Positions 30,188-47,107 of a stretch of DNA of 64,000 nucleotides are shown piece by piece. The notes beneath the pieces were generated by a model that saw only the letters and a list, made by a program, of their open reading frames with translations, was not told where the DNA came from and did not search any database. The stretch comes from a phage. Position 1 is the first letter of the stretch. Every line of letters starts with the position of its first letter. The position numbers and the translations under genes were made by a program. Where the stretch lies: sequence record NC_129898.1. One strand, 5' to 3'.

Positions 30188-30526
30188 ATGGCGGATACAA
30201 CTAAAAAGCGTCGCCGTAGAGGCAGACCTCTGAAAGAGGAGTCCAACGCCATTCAGCTAGAGAAGAACATTCTTGATATGAAGGAATCTTTTATAGCGAT
30301 GGTTCCAGAAGCTCACAAAGTTTTAAGAGAGCTGATGTTGGATCCGAAAACCAAGCAAAATATTCGTCAAAGCATTGCAGAGTATGTTCTTGATAAGGCA
30401 GACCGAATGCAGGAAGAATATGATGAGATGTTTGGTGAAGAGGAAGAGGTGGTAGTAGAAGAGGCTGAAAAACCAGCACCTTTTATGCCATTTACCACAG
30501 AAATACAGCCTGTTAGCAATAGCTAA
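30188..30526 (+). CDS. hypothetical protein with basic N-terminus (possibly DNA-binding)
   Basis: Started at MADTTKKRRRRGRP with GGAGG RBS; acidic C-terminus. Confidence 0.5.
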   Translation: MADTTKKRRRRGRPLKEESNAIQLEKNILDMKESFIAMVPEAHKVLRELMLDPKTKQNIRQSIAEYVLDKADRMQEEYDEMFGEEEEVVVEEAEKPAPFMPFTTEIQPVSNS

Positions 30527-30535
30527 AATATTTTC

Positions 30536-30564
30536 TTGACAAACTTTGCTTAACAGTGTAATAT
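30536..30564 (+). promoter_or_regulatory. sigma70 promoter (TTGACA-17-TAATAT) ahead of the tRNA cluster
   Basis: Consensus -35 and good -10 about 60 nt before the first tRNA. Confidence 0.5.
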
Positions 30565-30622
30565 TGTAAACATGGTCTCCCACCTTTTCTGGCGGCTAAG
30601 GTGTAAAAGAAAGCCACCCAGT

Positions 30623-30697
30623 GCCCTGTTAGCTTAGTGGATAAAGCAGCGGCCTTCTAAGCCGTTGACACTGGTTCGAGTCCAGTACGGGGTGCCA
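30623..30697 (+). tRNA. tRNA-Arg (anticodon TCT)
   Basis: Hand-folded cloverleaf: acceptor GCCCTGT/ACGGGGT, anticodon loop CTTCTAA, T-loop GGTTCGAGTCC, encoded CCA. Confidence 0.75.
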
Positions 30698-30827
30698 AGT
30701 TCTTTTTAATGTAGCTTACTTTAGCAGAGTAAATCTTCGGCAAGTGGCGGTAACCACTTTACCGATACCTCATAGTTAGTGGTGAGAACACTAGCTATTT
30801 TAAAAAGAATTTAAATATTAGTATTTA

Positions 30828-30915
30828 GGTGAGTTAATTCCGTAGGGGTAGCGGGGCAGACTGTAAATCTGTTATCATTGCGATTCGGGTGGTTCGACTC
30901 CATCACTCACCACCA
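30828..30915 (+). tRNA. tRNA-Tyr (anticodon GTA)
   Basis: Acceptor GGTGAGT/ACTCACC, anticodon arm CAGACTGTAAATCTG as in E. coli tRNA-Tyr, long variable arm, encoded CCA. Confidence 0.8.
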
Positions 30916-31029
30916 AATTTATATTTTTAAATGCATAAATCATACAGATAATGGCATTGATATTTATCGTCGTTTATACTAGTCACTAACTGCTCGAAAA
31001 TCAGTGTCATTATCAGTATTGTTTATAAA

Positions 31030-31120
31030 AGAGGGTAGGGAGCAATGGTGCTCAAGCGGTCTTGAAAACCGTCCCGTTGAGGATGACTCGATGATGGTTC
31101 GATTCCATTATCCTCTGCCA
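31030..31120 (+). tRNA. tRNA-Ser (anticodon TGA)
   Basis: Acceptor AGAGGGT/ATCCTCT, anticodon loop CTTGAAA, 20-nt variable arm, T-loop GGTTCGATTCC, encoded CCA. Confidence 0.75.
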
Positions 31121-31218
31121 TATTGTTGACCTTGTAATTAAGCGAAAGCCGGAAGCAGAACCGGATTATCAAATGTTACAGTCGTCATCGCCGACTAGCC
31201 ACATGGTCAACATATTGC

Positions 31219-31315
31219 GCTAGGTAAGCCCTTTGGCAAGGGCGAGGATTTTTAATCCTGAAAATAGACGAGGTAGTCGTTGAATACATAGATGGTTCGA
31301 TTCCATCACCTAGCA
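31219..31315 (+). tRNA. tRNA-Lys-like (anticodon TTT) with atypically long variable region
   Basis: Acceptor GCTAGGT/ACCTAGC and anticodon arm GAGGA-TTTTTAA-TCCTG are canonical, but about 30 nt separate the anticodon stem from the T arm and CCA is not fully encoded. Confidence 0.4.
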
Positions 31316-31321
31316 CCTTTT

Positions 31322-31397
31322 GCTGATGTAGCACAATTGGCAGTGCAATTGATTTGTAATCAATAGGTTGCAGGTTCAAGTCCTGCCATCAGCACCA
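31322..31397 (+). tRNA. tRNA-Thr (anticodon TGT)
   Basis: Acceptor GCTGATG/CATCAGC, anticodon arm ATTGA-TTTGTAA-TCAAT, T-loop GGTTCAAGTCC, encoded CCA. Confidence 0.85.
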
Positions 31398-31398
31398 T

Positions 31399-31473
31399 GG
31401 CCCTGTAGCTGGAAGGTTCAAGCAAGCGACTCATAATCGCCAGACGGTGGTTCAATTCCACCCAGGGCCACCA
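31399..31473 (+). tRNA. tRNA-Met or tRNA-Ile2 (anticodon CAT)
   Basis: Acceptor GGCCCTG/CAGGGCC, anticodon loop CTCATAA, T-loop GGTTCAATTCC, encoded CCA. Confidence 0.75.
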
Positions 31474-31484
31474 AATTATAAATA

Positions 31485-31561
31485 CTCCGCGTAGCTCAGC
31501 TTGGTAGAGCGCCTGATTTGGGATCAGGAGGTCGAGTGTTCGAATCACTCCGTGGAGACCA
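31485..31561 (+). tRNA. tRNA-Pro (anticodon TGG)
   Basis: Acceptor CTCCGCG/CGTGGAG, anticodon arm CCTGA-TTTGGGA-TCAGG, T-loop GTGTTCGAATCAC, encoded CCA. Confidence 0.8.
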
Positions 31562-31607
31562 CCTTTAGTTATACTTTAAACATATACACACAAAAGGAAC
31601 CTTTAAA

Positions 31608-31877
31608 ATGTATACACTTAAAATTGTAGAGCGTGTAAATCCAACCCATACTGTAGATTTTCGTGACGATTTCAATCCTCTGGCTGTAAATCTTCGAGAG
31701 TCATATCATGAACTCAGCTGCGATGCAGTGGTGGTCTTTTTTGAAGACAACTCTGAAGGGGCGGTAGCTTGTGTTGTTGATAGTGAGCAGAAGTTTTATA
31801 TTTACAGAGATGTAGATGCATACTTGATGAATGAAAATGCAGTTACTGTTAGAATCATCCACCGAGTGCCTCGATAA
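31608..31877 (+). CDS. hypothetical protein
   Basis: 89-aa ORF after the tRNA cluster. Confidence 0.45.
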   Translation: MYTLKIVERVNPTHTVDFRDDFNPLAVNLRESYHELSCDAVVVFFEDNSEGAVACVVDSEQKFYIYRDVDAYLMNENAVTVRIIHRVPR

Positions 31878-44767: not shown

Positions 44768-47107
44768 ATGGCTACAAACAAAATAGTTGCCACAACAGTC
44801 AACAAGATTGGCTTTGAGATAGAGAACTCCTCCTACAAAAAAGCTGTAGAGAAAATTCGCAGTATTGGGAGGGAGTTCAGGAAACTGGGCGAGGATTTTA
44901 ACTCAGCCAACCCAATGAGTAGATGGCAGGCAGTGGCTGTTAAAACCCAGCAAACAATGCAGCGGGTTGCCAGACAGCAATCTCAGGCAAATGCTAAACT
45001 TCACAGGGAGAGCGTAGCACAAGCCAAGAAAGAGGCTGCAGTAAGGGCTGCAATAGAACGTAGGGAAAACGCAAGACGTAAACAGGCTGTAGGTAATCTT
45101 ACCGCTAAAAATCCAGAAATGGCCAGGATGCGTAAGTTCTACCAGCAGCAAGCTAAAGAGGCCAAAAAGGCTGCCAAATCTACACCAGTGTCTTACGGCG
45201 GTTATAAGGCACCAAAGGCAAGAGTTTTGGCTAATGCCAAATCTTTCAAGTATATCCCAGGTAACCCTAATATGGGTGGTGTGGCTTCCGACCCTAACCT
45301 TGTGAAAGCTCAGACAGCCGCTATGAATCGTTATCATAGACAGCTAAGAAGAGACAGTAAAGCTGGTATGGATAATAAGCTTATGTCTGATCGTGAGGCA
45401 AGGAGAACCCACCTCTACAACTCTGCGATAAGACTTTCTGCCAAGTATGGGGCCGGATTCCGTGGAAGCTTGGCAGGATACTCAGAGTTAGAGTCCAGGT
45501 TTGCTCGCGGGGAGATGAAAAAGTCAACCTTTAACGCCCACCTGTCAGCTCTGCAGTCTGGATTTAAAAGCGCCACCAGCCAAACGCTTACACTAGGTGA
45601 TGCCATGAGGGACTTACGTAGGTCTGTTATTAATGCAACAGCTGCGTATACTGCTTTCTCTGGATTTACTGCTGTGAACAGATCTGGTCACATGATGGAG
45701 GGGGCAAGTGCTGCTCTTACTGCTGTTACTGGAGATCCAAACAAAGCCAACAGTGAGGTTGCGTTTGTCCAGCAAGAGGCTATGCGTCTTGGTTTTGATC
45801 TCAAATCTGGTCTTCAAGGTTACGCCCAGATGGCGGTAAACGCCAAAAACCAGATGACAAATCAAGAGGTGCATGAGCTATTCTCTGCATACTCACAGTA
45901 TGCTGCTGCTTACGGTGCCGATGAGGTAAAATACCAGCGTGGCATCATGGCAATCCAGCAAATGCTCGGTAAAGGACAGGTAATGTCCGAAGAACTGAAG
46001 CAACAACTTGCTGAAGCATTGCCTGGTGCATACGAACCTTTTATCAAAGCCACCAAAGAGGCTTTTGGTCTTTCTGAACTATCCATGGATCAGTTCATGG
46101 ACATGATGAAGAAAGGTGAGGTTAAAACAGCCAAGATCATGAAGTATGTGGCTAAGTACATGAACGAGGCATCTGCAGCTGGTTATGAAAGAATGCAGAA
46201 GTCTAACGTACTGGCAGAAAACAGGCTGAAAACCTTCATCGAACTATCTCGTCAGAAGCTGTTCACCCGTTGGGCTGATGAATTAACAGAGTTCTATTAT
46301 ACACTGATTCGCACAGGTGAGACTTTGCAATTTGTGTGGGATGCCTCTGGTGATTTTGTTAGCGGGTTTGTGAGAGGCCTCAACTGGGTAGTTGGTGAAC
46401 TAAACAATACCATAGTCAAGATCCGCATGTTTTTCCTTGAATGGGGGATTAAATGGGGATTCATAACAGCTAAGACGAAGGAATATTCTGAAGAGCTTAA
46501 TGACACCTTTAGCTATGCTAAATGGGCAGGGTTTGCTGCTGCCATCATGCTGGTAGTGAACGCCCTGACAAAAGGTTTTGTCATGGCATCTATGCTTGTA
46601 AAAACCTTCAAATTCCTTAGTTCTATAAGAGGCGCAGCTGGAGCAGCAGGTGCAGGTGCAGCTACCACAGAAGGATCTGGTGGTGGTGCGGCAGGAAAAG
46701 GGGGAGGTGGCCTCAAGACACCTGGCGGTAAAGTTGGCCTGCTTGGGAAGCTTGGTATTATCGGTACAATATTAAGTGCCGGGGAGTTATTTAATGACCG
46801 TTTCAACCCGCTGAGTGAGAGAAATCAGCAACTGGATACTATCAGCGATATGATTCGCAAAGATATCATATCGGGAGGTAACGGGTTTGTTGATCCTTTG
46901 GACACCTTACCGGGAGGGACTCTTCCGTTGCCGGGTGGTCCTGGTTTTGCTTCTCAATTAAGAACTATGGAAATGCTACCTTTAGAGATCAGTGATGGCA
47001 AAATCACGATTTCAATAGATGAGGGGGAGTTTAGCAAAATACTTGATGCAAAACTTGAGTGGGAGAATAACAAAGATATTAACTTTATGTCAACAGATCT
47101 TTGGTAA
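44768..47107 (+). CDS. tape measure protein
   Basis: 779 aa, helix-rich N-terminal two thirds, hydrophobic segments and Gly-rich stretch near the C-terminus; follows the chaperone pair. Confidence 0.75.
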   Translation: MATNKIVATTVNKIGFEIENSSYKKAVEKIRSIGREFRKLGEDFNSANPMSRWQAVAVKTQQTMQRVARQQSQANAKLHRESVAQAKKEAAVRAAIERRENARRKQAVGNLTAKNPEMARMRKFYQQQAKEAKKAAKSTPVSYGGYKAPKARVLANAKSFKYIPGNPNMGGVASDPNLVKAQTAAMNRYHRQLRRDSKAGMDNKLMSDREARRTHLYNSAIRLSAKYGAGFRGSLAGYSELESRFARGEMKKSTFNAHLSALQSGFKSATSQTLTLGDAMRDLRRSVINATAAYTAFSGFTAVNRSGHMMEGASAALTAVTGDPNKANSEVAFVQQEAMRLGFDLKSGLQGYAQMAVNAKNQMTNQEVHELFSAYSQYAAAYGADEVKYQRGIMAIQQMLGKGQVMSEELKQQLAEALPGAYEPFIKATKEAFGLSELSMDQFMDMMKKGEVKTAKIMKYVAKYMNEASAAGYERMQKSNVLAENRLKTFIELSRQKLFTRWADELTEFYYTLIRTGETLQFVWDASGDFVSGFVRGLNWVVGELNNTIVKIRMFFLEWGIKWGFITAKTKEYSEELNDTFSYAKWAGFAAAIMLVVNALTKGFVMASMLVKTFKFLSSIRGAAGAAGAGAATTEGSGGGAAGKGGGGLKTPGGKVGLLGKLGIIGTILSAGELFNDRFNPLSERNQQLDTISDMIRKDIISGGNGFVDPLDTLPGGTLPLPGGPGFASQLRTMEMLPLEISDGKITISIDEGEFSKILDAKLEWENNKDINFMSTDLW

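What the first reader, a model, noticed from the sequence alone, without database searches (positions are those of the whole stretch)
30698..31320. tRNA cluster irregularities: a Lys-like tRNA with a 30-nt extra region and two spacers that fold but are not tRNAs
Six tRNAs fold canonically and all but the CAT tRNA have U at the wobble position (reading AGA, UCA, ACA, CCA). The seventh (31219-31315) has a textbook Lys anticodon arm and matching acceptor strands but about 30 nt, including an ACGA/TCGT hairpin, between anticodon stem and T arm. The spacers 30698-30827 and 31121-31218 hold stable hairpins and a long-range inverted repeat (GTTGACC...GGTCAAC) but no T-loop. These could be degenerate tRNAs, small RNAs or processing signals.
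Basis: seen in the sequence. Interest (0 to 1): 0.45.

Follow-up and report, generated by a model that had tools for sequence, protein, structure and literature searches.

The report
Three unannotated structured RNAs in phage tRNA operon
The "irregular" stretches in this rV5-like phage's tRNA cluster are three separate, conserved folded RNAs: a tRNA look-alike whose lysine anticodon is not conserved in relatives, and two non-tRNA elements shared with unrelated phages, one of them with phage lambda; none is annotated or in Rfam, and their function is unknown.

Summary
The window is a Vequintavirus (rV5-like) genome. One sigma-70-like promoter precedes six ordinary tRNAs (Arg-TCT, Tyr-GTA, Ser-TGA, Thr-TGT, CAT, Pro-TGG).

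- **A (30697-30812):** a 116-nt four-way-junction RNA with a 17-bp closing helix. It is an indel in Vequintavirus. Here it came with tRNA-Tyr as a cassette about 99% identical to Phapecoctavirus ESCO13. In phages it always lies just upstream of tRNA-Tyr.
- **B (31123-31212):** a conserved 65-nt core inside a closing helix whose sequence differs by lineage. The same core sits in lambda (44857-44941), after tRNA-Ser(UGA) in P7-type phages, and in 426 of 5426 complete E. coli genomes.
- **C (31219-31317):** the "Lys-like tRNA". It belongs to a family found in all five sampled Vequintavirinae genera (24 distinct sequences). Acceptor, D and T arms covary, as does a D-loop/T-loop contact. The anticodon-like arm is 1-2 nt short and its loop varies (UUUUUAA, UUUAUAA, CAUCCA, CAUCAAA). 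The 30-40-nt extra region is conserved.

None matches Rfam or T4 rnaC/rnaD. My best reading is that they are stable small RNAs released by tRNA processing, with C a tRNA mimic. That step is inferred.

The parts
30536..30564 (+). Sigma-70-like promoter TTGACA-17-TAATAT upstream of the tRNA operon
   Evidence: Consensus scan, 10 of 12 matches. The same site is annotated as a promoter in phage ECML-10. Not tested for function.
30623..30697 (+). tRNA-Arg (TCT), canonical
   Evidence: ARAGORN; Rfam tRNA 67.8 bits.
30697..30812 (+). Element A: 116-nt four-way-junction RNA. P1 is a 17-bp closing helix. P2 is UUACU/AGUAA. P3 is CGGCAAGUGG/CCACUUUACCG. P4 is UAGUG/CACUA with a 7-nt loop. It starts at the A of the Arg CCA end.
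   Evidence: RNAalifold on 9 lineages gives 40 pairs, 6 of them compensatory. 99.7% of cells are paired against 39-55% when partners are slid. Model R3 scores 130.6 bits on + and 49.7 on -. z = -4.5. It is an indel absent from most vequintaviruses.
30813..30827 (+). 15-nt AT-rich linker between element A and tRNA-Tyr
   Evidence: Present in the window and in ESCO13. Absent in phAPEC8 and the T5-like phages, where A abuts tRNA-Tyr.
30828..30915 (+). tRNA-Tyr (GTA), type II. Together with element A it forms a cassette matching Phapecoctavirus ESCO13.
   Evidence: Rfam tRNA 39 bits; missed by ARAGORN. Only 2 mismatches to ESCO13 across 30698-30918, against about 10 differences from the usual Vequintavirus tRNA-Tyr.
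30916..31029 (+). Spacer with a long imperfect hairpin of about 30 bp. Not part of the original finding.
   Evidence: MFE -26.4 kcal/mol, z = -4.7. Conserved at 94-100% in 113 Vequintavirus records and found nowhere else.
31030..31120 (+). tRNA-Ser (TGA), type II
   Evidence: ARAGORN. The best Rfam clan hit is tRNA-Sec at 39.4 bits, below its threshold.
31123..31212 (+). Element B: closing helix UUGUUGACC/GGUCAACA around a conserved core. The core is AAUUAAGCGAAAG, then the hairpin CCGG-AAGCAGAA-CCGG, then AUUAUCAAAUGUUAC, then the hairpin AGUCG-UCAUCGC-CGACU.
   Evidence: Model R2 scores 86.4 bits. Six of 8 closing-helix pairs show compensatory changes across the rV5, lambda and P7 types, and 2 pairs in the 7-nt-loop hairpin do so as well. 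The core is 85-88% identical to lambda and P7.
31219..31317 (+). Element C: tRNA-like RNA (the 'Lys-like tRNA'). It has a 7-bp acceptor stem, A8-A9, a D arm with loop UUUGGCAA, a 15-nt anticodon-like arm AGGA-UUUUUAA-UCCU, then GAAAAUA, the hairpin GACGA-GGUAG-UCGUU, then GAAUACAUA, a T arm GAUGG-UUCGAUU-CCAUC, discriminator A, and CC.
   Evidence: ARAGORN '???'; Rfam tRNA 37.5 bits. Model R1 scores 104.9 bits against at most 26 for ordinary tRNAs. In a family of 24 distinct sequences, 99.4% of cells are paired and 12 of 22 pairs are compensatory, including the D-loop/T-loop pair G:C to U:A.
31322..31561 (+). tRNA-Thr (TGT) 31322-31397, tRNA with CAT anticodon 31399-31473, tRNA-Pro (TGG) 31485-31561. 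All canonical.
   Evidence: ARAGORN; Rfam tRNA 77.1, 60.0 and 66.4 bits.

Best explanation
The tRNA operon of this rV5-like phage carries three independent non-tRNA or atypical RNA modules slotted between ordinary tRNAs and kept by selection.

**Shown.** Each module has a fold preserved by compensatory changes across separate phage lineages. Each fold is supported on the tRNA-sense strand: by G-U pairs for A and B, and for A also by the model score.
- A and B are closed by long helices that bring their 5' and 3' ends together.
- A always sits at most one tRNA upstream of tRNA-Tyr.
- B sits directly 3' of tRNA-Ser(UGA), or alone in the lambda-type late leader.
- C keeps a complete tRNA acceptor/T-arm/D-arm elbow and, in most genera, an encoded CCA. 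It has a shortened, non-conserved anticodon-like arm and a conserved five-way-junction insert.

**Inferred.** All three are made as part of the single tRNA precursor. They would be released by the host enzymes that cut out the neighbouring tRNAs: RNase P at the next tRNA's 5' end, and endonuclease or exonuclease trimming after the previous CCA. They would persist as discrete, exonuclease-protected small RNAs, as T4's species 1 and 2 RNAs do.

C would then be handled as a tRNA (RNase P, CCA-adding enzyme, T-loop modification) but would act as a tRNA mimic rather than a conserved decoder. In the E. coli-infecting genus it has acquired a Lys-type loop plus discriminator A73. That combination would fit a decoy or substitute aimed at Lys-specific tRNA-targeting host defences. 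This last step is speculation.
For: **Context**
- Single promoter and no terminator-like site inside A or B.
- No ORF is credible. The longest ORFs overlapping the cluster (up to 64 aa) lie over or antisense to tRNA genes. The lambda and rV5 versions of B differ by a 1-nt indel, which breaks the reading frame.

**Element A**
- 40 pairs, 6 compensatory, 99.7% of cells paired against at most 55% when slid.
- Strand preference 130.6 against 49.7 bits.
- Flush with the flanking tRNAs in phAPEC8, phi92, PBES02 and the T5-like phages.
- Essentially absent from 185,579 bacterial species genomes: one partial hit.

**Element B**
- The closing helix differs in sequence between the rV5, lambda, P7 and L034/L114/L115 types, but pairing is kept.
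- More than 120 viral contigs carry it.
- When tRNAs are nearby, it nearly always directly follows tRNA-Ser(UGA).

**Element C**
- 24 distinct members across Vequintavirus, Avunavirus, Seunavirus, Mydovirus and Henunavirus.
- 99.4% of cells paired and 12 of 22 pairs compensatory, including a tertiary G:C to U:A swap.
- The loop of the anticodon-like arm is not conserved, while GAAAAUA and AAUACAUAG are.
- CCA is encoded in most members.

**Precedent**
- T4 has rnaD and rnaC directly after tRNA-Arg(TCT) in its tRNA operon.
Against: - There are no expression data, so accumulation as separate RNAs is not shown.
- Models of A, B and C find nothing in the T4 tRNA region. The T4 parallel is therefore positional only.
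- Most vequintaviruses lack A, so it is dispensable there.
- Two IMG/VR copies of B combine a P7-type 5' strand with a lambda-type 3' strand and cannot form the closing helix.
- B's inner hairpins barely vary, so their structure rests mainly on conservation.
- For C in this genus, the loop UUUUUAA with A73 matches the LysRS identity elements (my own knowledge), so real decoding is not excluded.
- Sequence diversity for A and B is modest: effective sequence number about 1.0-1.3 in the models.
Confidence: 0.55

Rival explanations
1. Element C is a working lysine tRNA (anticodon UUU) in Vequintavirus. On this view it is an unusual type-II-like tRNA-Lys that supplies, or replaces, host tRNA-Lys cleaved by defence nucleases such as PrrC or PARIS AriB.
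For: - The 7-nt loop UUUUUAA has U33, UUU and A37.
- The discriminator is A73 in this genus only. Most other members have U73; one Av-05-type metagenome variant has C.
- The elbow is intact and the acceptor stem covaries.
- Several GenBank records call it tRNA-Lys.
- Phage tRNA-Lys rescue from PARIS and PrrC is documented for T5, T1 and T7 (PMC11464382, PMC11555353).
Against: - The anticodon arm is one nucleotide short, with 4 bp or a G-G mismatch.
- Position 8 is A and the first D-loop base is U.
- The close relative Av-05 (92% identical) has UAU in the same loop. The other genera have loops of 5-7 nt without U33.
- Family-level constraint lies in the 30-40-nt insert rather than the loop.
- The rV5 genome paper did not count it as a tRNA (PMC3606486).
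Confidence: 0.25
2. A, B and the 30916-31029 hairpin act only in cis. On this view they are folding insulators or processing signals (for example RNase III, RNase E or RNase P guides) that help maturation of the adjoining long-variable-arm tRNAs (Tyr, Ser), and they are degraded afterwards.
For: - A is always next to tRNA-Tyr, and B directly follows tRNA-Ser(UGA) whenever tRNAs are near.
- The long closing helices of 17 bp and about 30 bp resemble double-strand-specific cleavage sites.
- The elements are flush with the tRNA ends.
Against: - 95 of 125 copies of B lie in lambda-type late leaders with no tRNA within 1.5 kb.
- B's 65-nt core is conserved in sequence far beyond what a helix-only signal would need.
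- Most vequintaviruses mature the same tRNA-Tyr position without A.
- A has conserved loops and junctions as well as conserved helices.
Confidence: 0.3
3. The spacers are DNA-level features: scars or cargo of cassette exchange (homing-endonuclease-driven or homologous recombination between tRNA genes), or small mobile inserts that land inside pre-existing palindromes. The RNA fold would then be incidental.
For: - A plus tRNA-Tyr is a clean indel with junctions in tRNA-end microhomology, and is about 99% identical between two unrelated genera.
- B's core is bounded by different inverted repeats in different hosts, and chimeric copies exist.
- An HNH endonuclease gene sits in the cluster of one relative (H8).
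- T4 has segB in its tRNA cluster (PMC2330249).
Against: - Compensatory changes occur in internal helices, not only the terminal ones.
- G-U pairs are tolerated on the + strand only, and model scores are much lower on the - strand.
- Within the lambda type, the closing helix changes GCUG/CAGC to GGUG/CACC with pairing kept.
Confidence: 0.1
4. The irregular stretches are decaying tRNA genes or neutral junk between tRNAs.
For: They occupy tRNA-sized slots in a tRNA cluster, and several records label C as pseudo or OTHER.
Against: - No tRNA-model hit in A or B at E<10.
- Cross-lineage conservation with compensatory changes.
- C keeps 99.4% of its pairs across five genera, plus a covarying tertiary pair.
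Confidence: 0.05

Closest known systems
Phage T4 stable RNAs rnaC (species 1, 139 nt) and rnaD (species 2, 119 nt)
   Same: They are non-tRNA RNAs of about 100-140 nt embedded in a phage tRNA operon. In T4 they lie directly after tRNA-Arg(TCT), as element A does here. rnaC ends in a T-arm-like hairpin (CCGGG-UUCGAAU-CCCGG) preceded by a hairpin and an A/U-rich stretch, loosely like C. Their function is still unknown (my own knowledge).
   Different: There is no detectable homology: models R1, R2 and R3 give no hit on rnaC or rnaD. Lengths and folds differ. T4 has no tRNA-Tyr.
Canonical bacterial tRNA-Lys(UUU), and phage tRNA-Lys variants that evade PARIS or PrrC
   Same: C in this genus has the Lys loop UUUUUAA, A73, a 7-bp acceptor stem, a D arm with GG and a T arm UUCGAUU. 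It passes the Rfam tRNA threshold.
   Different: The anticodon arm has 15 nt rather than 17. Positions 8 and 14 are A and U instead of U and A. The variable region is 30 nt instead of 5. The anticodon is not conserved in orthologues. The phi92 tRNA-Lys beside element A is a normal 76-nt tRNA and is unrelated in its arm sequence.
Type II (long-variable-arm) tRNAs: Ser, Leu, Tyr, Sec
   Same: An extra hairpin lies between the anticodon arm and the T arm. It covaries and varies in length.
   Different: In C the hairpin is flanked by 7 and 8-9 conserved unpaired nucleotides, which makes a five-way junction. Total length is 31-40 nt, well above the range I recall for type II arms (about 13-21 nt). 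The discriminator (U or A) and the loop do not fit Ser, Leu or Tyr identity rules (my own knowledge).
Spacer-derived RNAs from tRNA precursors (for example the E. coli 3'ETS of leuZ, which acts as an sRNA sponge), and prophage late-leader sRNAs (AgvB, AsxR, STnc100, Pas, IpeX)
   Same: B lies in the same 'moron' zone downstream of pR' in lambdoid prophages, or in a tRNA 3' trailer. A STnc100-like sub-threshold match lies just downstream of B in P7. PMC4104026 and bioRxiv 10.64898/2026.05.13.724894 describe that zone as rich in sRNAs.
   Different: B has no intrinsic terminator. It matches no Rfam family, including AgvB, AsxR and STnc100. It is absent from the DLP12 nmpC region, where (my recollection) IpeX lies.

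Membership tests
Canonical decoding tRNA (tRNA-Lys) - element C | Cloverleaf with 7-bp acceptor stem, D arm with GG, and T arm with UUCRAnn; scores above the Rfam tRNA threshold | tested here: met
   Rfam RF00005 scores 37.5 bits against a threshold of 29. All four helices are 97.5-100% paired in 24 relatives.
Canonical decoding tRNA (tRNA-Lys) - element C | 17-nt anticodon arm (5 bp plus a 7-nt loop with U33) and an anticodon conserved among orthologues | tested here: not met
   The arm has 15-16 nt, and the Rfam alignment needs a deletion at position 27. The loops are UUUUUAA, UUUAUAA, CAUCCA, CAUCA, CCUCAA, CAGCCA and (C/U)AUCAAA.
Canonical decoding tRNA (tRNA-Lys) - element C | Short (4-5 nt) variable region, U8 and A14 | tested here: not met
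   31-40 nt lie between the arm and the T stem, counted from G43. Position 8 is A and the D loop begins with U in all members.
Canonical decoding tRNA (tRNA-Lys) - element C | Aminoacylation by LysRS and use on the ribosome | not testable with these tools
   Only sequence is available. A73 and UUU are present in this genus.
Type II tRNA (Ser/Leu/Tyr/Sec) - element C | Variable-arm hairpin emerging directly from the core, with an anticodon and discriminator matching one of these identities | tested here: not met
   The hairpin is flanked by the conserved GAAAAUA and AAUACAUA. The discriminator is U or A, and the loops fit none of these identities. R1 scores real type II tRNAs at 26 bits or less.
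T4 rnaC/rnaD stable RNAs - elements A, B and C | Sequence and structure homology to rnaC or rnaD | tested here: not met
   cmsearch with R1, R2 and R3 on the T4 tRNA region gives no hit on rnaC or rnaD.
T4 rnaC/rnaD stable RNAs - elements A, B and C | Non-tRNA RNA gene located inside a phage tRNA operon, next to tRNAs on the same strand | tested here: met
   The window layout against the T4 layout Arg-rnaD-rnaC.
T4 rnaC/rnaD stable RNAs - elements A, B and C | Accumulates as a stable processed RNA in infected cells | not testable with these tools
   No expression data are available.
Degenerate tRNA or pseudogene - elements A and B | Residual match to a tRNA covariance model (T arm, acceptor pairing in register) | tested here: not met
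   No RF00005 or clan hit in 30698-30827 or 31121-31218 at E<10. There is no R1 hit either, and ARAGORN finds none.
Any Rfam 15 family (including YrlA, tmRNA, AgvB, AsxR, STnc100, ribozymes) - elements A and B | Match at or near the family's gathering score | tested here: not met
   cmscan at E<=10 on the window region and at E<=1 on the lambda and P7 loci finds nothing over A or B. The YrlA hit at 25 bits lies over ordinary tRNAs.
IpeX (DLP12 prophage sRNA) - element B | Presence downstream of nmpC in E. coli K-12 DLP12 (the IpeX location is from my own memory) | tested here: not met
   The B core hairpin motif has no match, even with 3 mismatches, in MG1655 572500-578500.
Small protein gene - spacers | Open reading frame conserved in frame among homologues | tested here: not met
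   The only ORFs in or across the spacers are short, at most 64 aa, and overlap or run antisense to tRNA genes. A 1-nt indel between the lambda and rV5 versions of B shifts the only ATG-started frame.

The most novel reading that the evidence does not exclude
Element C defines a previously undescribed class of CCA-ended, probably chargeable tRNA mimics with a five-way junction, used by the sampled Vequintavirinae for something other than decoding, such as neutralising tRNA-targeting immunity. Elements A and B would be new trans-acting phage small RNAs. B would then be an overlooked structured RNA in the late leader of phage lambda itself, and A would be part of a horizontally traded tRNA-Tyr counter-defence cassette.
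Probability: 0.25. Interest if true: 0.8.

Novelty: new variant of a known kind. Interest (0 to 1): 0.6.

Why it matters
- **Phage tRNA clusters and host defence.** These clusters are now understood partly as counter-measures to host nucleases that cut tRNAs (PMC10264068, PMC11464382, PMC11555353). The non-tRNA RNAs sitting in them have had no explanation since T4's species 1 and 2 RNAs were found.
- **What is new here.** Such passengers are widespread, conserved in structure and exchanged between unrelated phages. One travels with tRNA-Tyr, one with tRNA-Ser(UGA), and one is a tRNA look-alike found in all five sampled genera of a phage subfamily.
- **Tractable systems.** The elements occur in lambda, P1/P7 and the BASEL collection rV5-like phages, where deletions and Northern blots are easy.
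- **Annotation.** The same locus is currently labelled tRNA-Lys, tRNA-OTHER, tRNA-TERM or pseudo, or is left blank. Codon-usage arguments that count it as a Lys tRNA are unsafe.

Tried and rejected
- **Rfam.** A permissive search of the region and of the lambda and P7 loci found nothing over A or B.
- **Homology to T4 rnaC/rnaD.** By eye, rnaD shares a CCGG-loop-CCGG hairpin followed by AGUCGUC with B, and rnaC has a hairpin, an A/U-rich stretch and a T arm like C. None of the three covariance models hits them, so homology is rejected.
- **B as IpeX.** Rejected: the core motif is absent from the DLP12 nmpC region.
- **B as AgvB, AsxR or a Pas sRNA.** There is no Rfam hit and B has no terminator. 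The core sequence is absent from the text of PMC4104026 and of the Pas preprint. I could not compare directly with Pas sequences.
- **B as a small ORF.** The 15-codon ORF in lambda is rejected because the frame breaks in the rV5 version.
- **A as part of the 'strong tRNA-Tyr promoter' of T5-like phage SP15 (PMC11555353).** Neither T5 nor SP15 is among the records listed for A in the near search. The link is dropped.
- **Kissing interaction in C.** Complementarity between the anticodon-like loop (NCCA) and the extra-arm loop (UGGN) appears in only 4-5 Seunavirus-type members. One pair covaries (GCCA/UGGC), but the pattern is absent elsewhere. It is kept as a hint only.
- **4-nt-loop alternative for B's second hairpin.** RNAalifold chose it, but it is broken in the rV5 version. 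The 7-nt-loop version has compensatory support.
- **Literature.** Searches for T5 stable RNAs and for Vequintavirus tRNA-Lys returned nothing.
Full report
**What the window is.** The region 30500-31650 is 97-99% identical to many Vequintavirus (rV5-like) E. coli phages. It holds one tRNA operon on the + strand behind a good sigma-70-like promoter, TTGACA-17-TAATAT at 30536-30564 (annotated as a promoter in ECML-10).

- ARAGORN finds Arg-TCT, Ser-TGA, Thr-TGT, a CAT tRNA, Pro-TGG and an odd 'tRNA-???(atcc)' at 31219-31317.
- The Rfam tRNA model adds a type II Tyr-GTA at 30828-30912 and also scores 31219-31315 above threshold, with a large insertion.
One slip: tRNA-Tyr has G, not U, at the wobble position.
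- The rV5 genome paper lists the same six tRNAs and not the seventh (PMC3606486).

**Observation check.** The hairpins and long-range inverted repeats are as described. They fold better than dinucleotide shuffles: z = -4.5, -2.3 and -3.9 for the three flagged stretches. No tRNA-model or other Rfam hit falls in either spacer at E<10. There is no credible ORF. The scan places no terminator-like site inside A or B.

**Element A (30697-30812).**
- *It is an indel.* Aligned with other vequintaviruses, spacer 1 is a clean 127-nt insertion. In EmilHeitz, pangalan, rV5 and FV3, tRNA-Arg is followed after 4-5 nt by tRNA-Tyr.
- *It arrived as a cassette.* The insert and the adjoining tRNA-Tyr have only 2 mismatches to Phapecoctavirus ESCO13 across about 220 nt. 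This tRNA-Tyr differs at about 10 positions from the usual Vequintavirus one. That points to a recent cassette exchange with junctions at the tRNA ends.
- *Distribution.* Homologues at 70-98% identity occur in 177 phage records: Phapecoctavirus, Justusliebigvirus (phi92), Certrevirus PBES02, an unclassified Klebsiella Stephanstirmvirinae phage, and a subset of T5-like phages. T5 and SP15 are not among the records listed in the near search. The feature is never annotated.
- *Position.* It fills the slot between two tRNAs and lies directly 5' of tRNA-Tyr, or in phi92-type phages 5' of Lys-Tyr.
- *Fold.* Nine lineages give a consensus four-way junction: a 17-bp closing helix and three hairpins. 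There are 40 pairs, 6 with compensatory changes spread over four helices. 99.7% of cells are paired, against 39-55% when partners are slid.
- *Strand.* G-U pairs fit only the + strand. The covariance model scores 125-136 bits on + against 30-50 bits on -.
- *Phage-restricted.* A scan of one genome for each of 185,579 bacterial and archaeal species found a single partial copy, in Scandinavium lactucae, with the P2-P3 core closed by a different helix.

**Element B (31123-31212).**
- *Shared core.* Its core (31135-31203) is 85% identical to phage lambda 44866-44934 and 88% identical to P7.
- *Lambda context.* In lambda it lies about 75 nt downstream of the run I read as tR' (identified from memory, not annotated in the record) and about 250 nt upstream of S.
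- *P7 context.* In P7 it directly follows an unannotated tRNA-Ser(TGA) whose 3' end matches the window's tRNA-Ser.
426 of 5426 complete E. coli genomes carry it, with 332 places on chromosomes and 121 on plasmids, never annotated.
- *tRNA neighbours.* Of 125 copies, 95 have no tRNA within 1.5 kb. Nearly all the rest sit directly after tRNA-Ser(UGA).
- *Closing helix.* The 65-nt core is nearly invariant, but the enclosing helix differs by lineage: UUGUUGACC/GGUCAACA here, GUUGUGCUG/CAGCACAAC in lambda, GUUGUGGUG/CACCACA in others, UUGGCU/AGCCAA in P7. Six of 8 pairs have compensatory changes.
- *Inner hairpin.* The 7-nt-loop hairpin adds two more compensatory pairs (AGUCG/CGACU, GGCG/CGCC, GGGCG/CGCCC).
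- *Not coding.* A 1-nt indel between the lambda and rV5 versions rules out a conserved peptide.
- *Not a known sRNA.* It is absent from the DLP12 nmpC region, where I recall IpeX lying. It matches no Rfam family, including AgvB, AsxR and STnc100.
- *Caveat.* Two chimeric copies cannot form the closing helix.

**Element C (31219-31317), the 'Lys-like tRNA'.**
- *Inconsistent annotation.* It is 97-100% conserved in Vequintavirus and variously labelled tRNA-Lys, tRNA-OTHER, tRNA-Pseudo, tRNA-TERM or '???'.
- *Relatives in all five sampled genera.* They exist in Avunavirus (Av-05, 92%), Seunavirus, Mydovirus and Henunavirus. A model built from 11 of them scores family members at 89-122 bits and ordinary tRNAs at 26 bits or less. 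Viral and metagenome scans raised the set to 38 hits, 24 of them distinct.
- *tRNA-like fold.* Across these, the acceptor, D, anticodon-like and T helices are 99.4% paired, and 12 of 22 pairs show compensatory changes.
- *Elbow contact.* The D-loop/T-loop contact covaries. UUUGGCAA goes with UUCGAUU and UUUGUCAA goes with UUAGAUU, that is G:C to U:A in 7 of 24. Its tRNA numbering (19:56) is my inference. The RNA therefore very probably adopts a tRNA-like L shape.
- *3' end.* Most members encode U73-CCA. This genus has A73-CC.
- *Anticodon-like arm.* It has only 15-16 nt. Its loop differs between lineages: UUUUUAA here, UUUAUAA in Av-05, and CAUCCA, CAUCA, CCUCAA, CAGCCA and (C/U)AUCAAA elsewhere.
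- *The insert is the conserved part.* It consists of GAAAAUA, a hairpin whose stem sequence changes completely while staying paired, and (G/U)AAUACAUA before the T stem.
- *Conclusion for C.* The Lys reading is specific to this lineage at best.

**Comparison with T4.** In T4 the tRNA operon ends Arg(TCT)-rnaD-rnaC, a striking positional parallel to Arg-A here. None of the three models detects rnaC or rnaD. I therefore treat the T4 RNAs as functional analogues and not as relatives.

**How it most likely works.**
- *Shown:* three folds under selection on the tRNA-sense strand, and modular horizontal spread linked to particular tRNAs.
- *Inferred:* co-transcription from the single promoter; release by the enzymes that excise the flanking tRNAs; and stabilisation by closing helices (A, B) or a tRNA-like body (C).
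- *For C:* I favour a tRNA mimic over a decoder, because constraint lies outside the anticodon. In the E. coli-infecting genus, however, a Lys-type loop and A73 appear together. These are the LysRS identity elements as I recall them. Real lysine charging, or mimicry aimed at Lys-specific nucleases such as PrrC or PARIS AriB (PMC11464382, PMC11555353), therefore remains open.
- *For A:* its strict linkage to tRNA-Tyr is notable because phage tRNA-Tyr counters retron-Eco7 (PMC11555353). I have no evidence that A contributes.

**Novelty and verdict.** I found no description of any of the three families in Rfam 15, in the annotated records or in the papers searched. They are new variants of a known kind: non-tRNA or tRNA-like RNAs in phage tRNA operons. 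Function is unproven, and every step beyond 'conserved structured RNA' is inference.

Noticed in passing
window 30916-31029: The spacer between tRNA-Tyr and tRNA-Ser, which was not in the finding, folds into an imperfect hairpin of about 30 bp (z = -4.7). It is 94-100% conserved in 113 Vequintavirus records and found nowhere else. It may be a double-strand-specific (RNase III-type) processing site.
   Followed up: partly
window 30698-30918 vs L150 700-920 (ESCO13): Element A plus tRNA-Tyr forms a cassette with only 2 mismatches to a Phapecoctavirus, while the tRNA-Tyr differs at about 10 positions from the usual Vequintavirus copy. This indicates a recent inter-genus exchange with junctions at the tRNA ends.
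   Followed up: yes
window 30828-30915; L002; L150 831-918: This tRNA-Tyr variant is missed by ARAGORN and is left unannotated in ECML-10 and ESCO13, although the Rfam tRNA model scores it at 39 bits.
   Followed up: partly
L005 (P7) 891-977 and 1087-1202: P7 has an unannotated tRNA-Ser(TGA) just before its copy of element B. A sub-threshold STnc100-like match (43 bits against a threshold of 47) lies just after it, upstream of terB.
   Followed up: no
L037 and one other IMG/VR locus: Chimeric copies of element B combine the P7-type 5' closing strand with the lambda-type 3' strand, so the closing helix cannot form.
   Followed up: no
L009 7213-7390; L181 9853-10021: These variants of element A are 169-178 nt long. 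In L009 the extra length is a 53-nt insertion in the P2 loop, and the rest of the fold is kept. The insertion point in L181 was not examined.
   Followed up: no
L180 230-331 (Scandinavium lactucae contig NZ_JAWXRD010000031.1): This is the only bacterial-genome hit for element A. The P2-P3 core and ACCGAUAC are conserved but closed by a different 7-bp helix (GCUGCUC/GAGCAGC). No tRNAs are nearby.
   Followed up: partly
L158, L156, L147, L157 (Seunavirus-type members of family C): The anticodon-like loop (UCCA, or GCCA in L158) is complementary to the extra-arm loop (UGGA, or UGGC in L158), with one covarying case. This hints at a loop-loop contact, but it is absent in the other genera.
   Followed up: partly
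L141-L148, about 180 nt after family C: In Seunavirus, Mydovirus and Henunavirus, C is followed by an unannotated gap of about 180 nt before tRNA-Leu. The start of the gap is partly conserved (…CCAAATCTATTCTGCGAGGTTCTGA…) and it may hold another element.
   Followed up: no
search hits: Many GenBank records named 'Campylobacter phage' (MG0656xx) are near-identical to E. coli rV5-like or phi92-like phages in this region. They are probably mislabelled or contaminant assemblies.
   Followed up: no
window 31399-31473: The CAT-anticodon tRNA is annotated as Met in most records but as Ile (ATA) in the BASEL phage records. Its identity (lysidine-modified Ile2 or elongator Met) was not examined.
   Followed up: no
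hit H8 (phage 241Ecol014PP): One relative has an HNH endonuclease gene annotated under the match to this tRNA cluster, and its match is about 350 bp longer than the query. This is consistent with endonuclease-driven cassette turnover.
   Followed up: no
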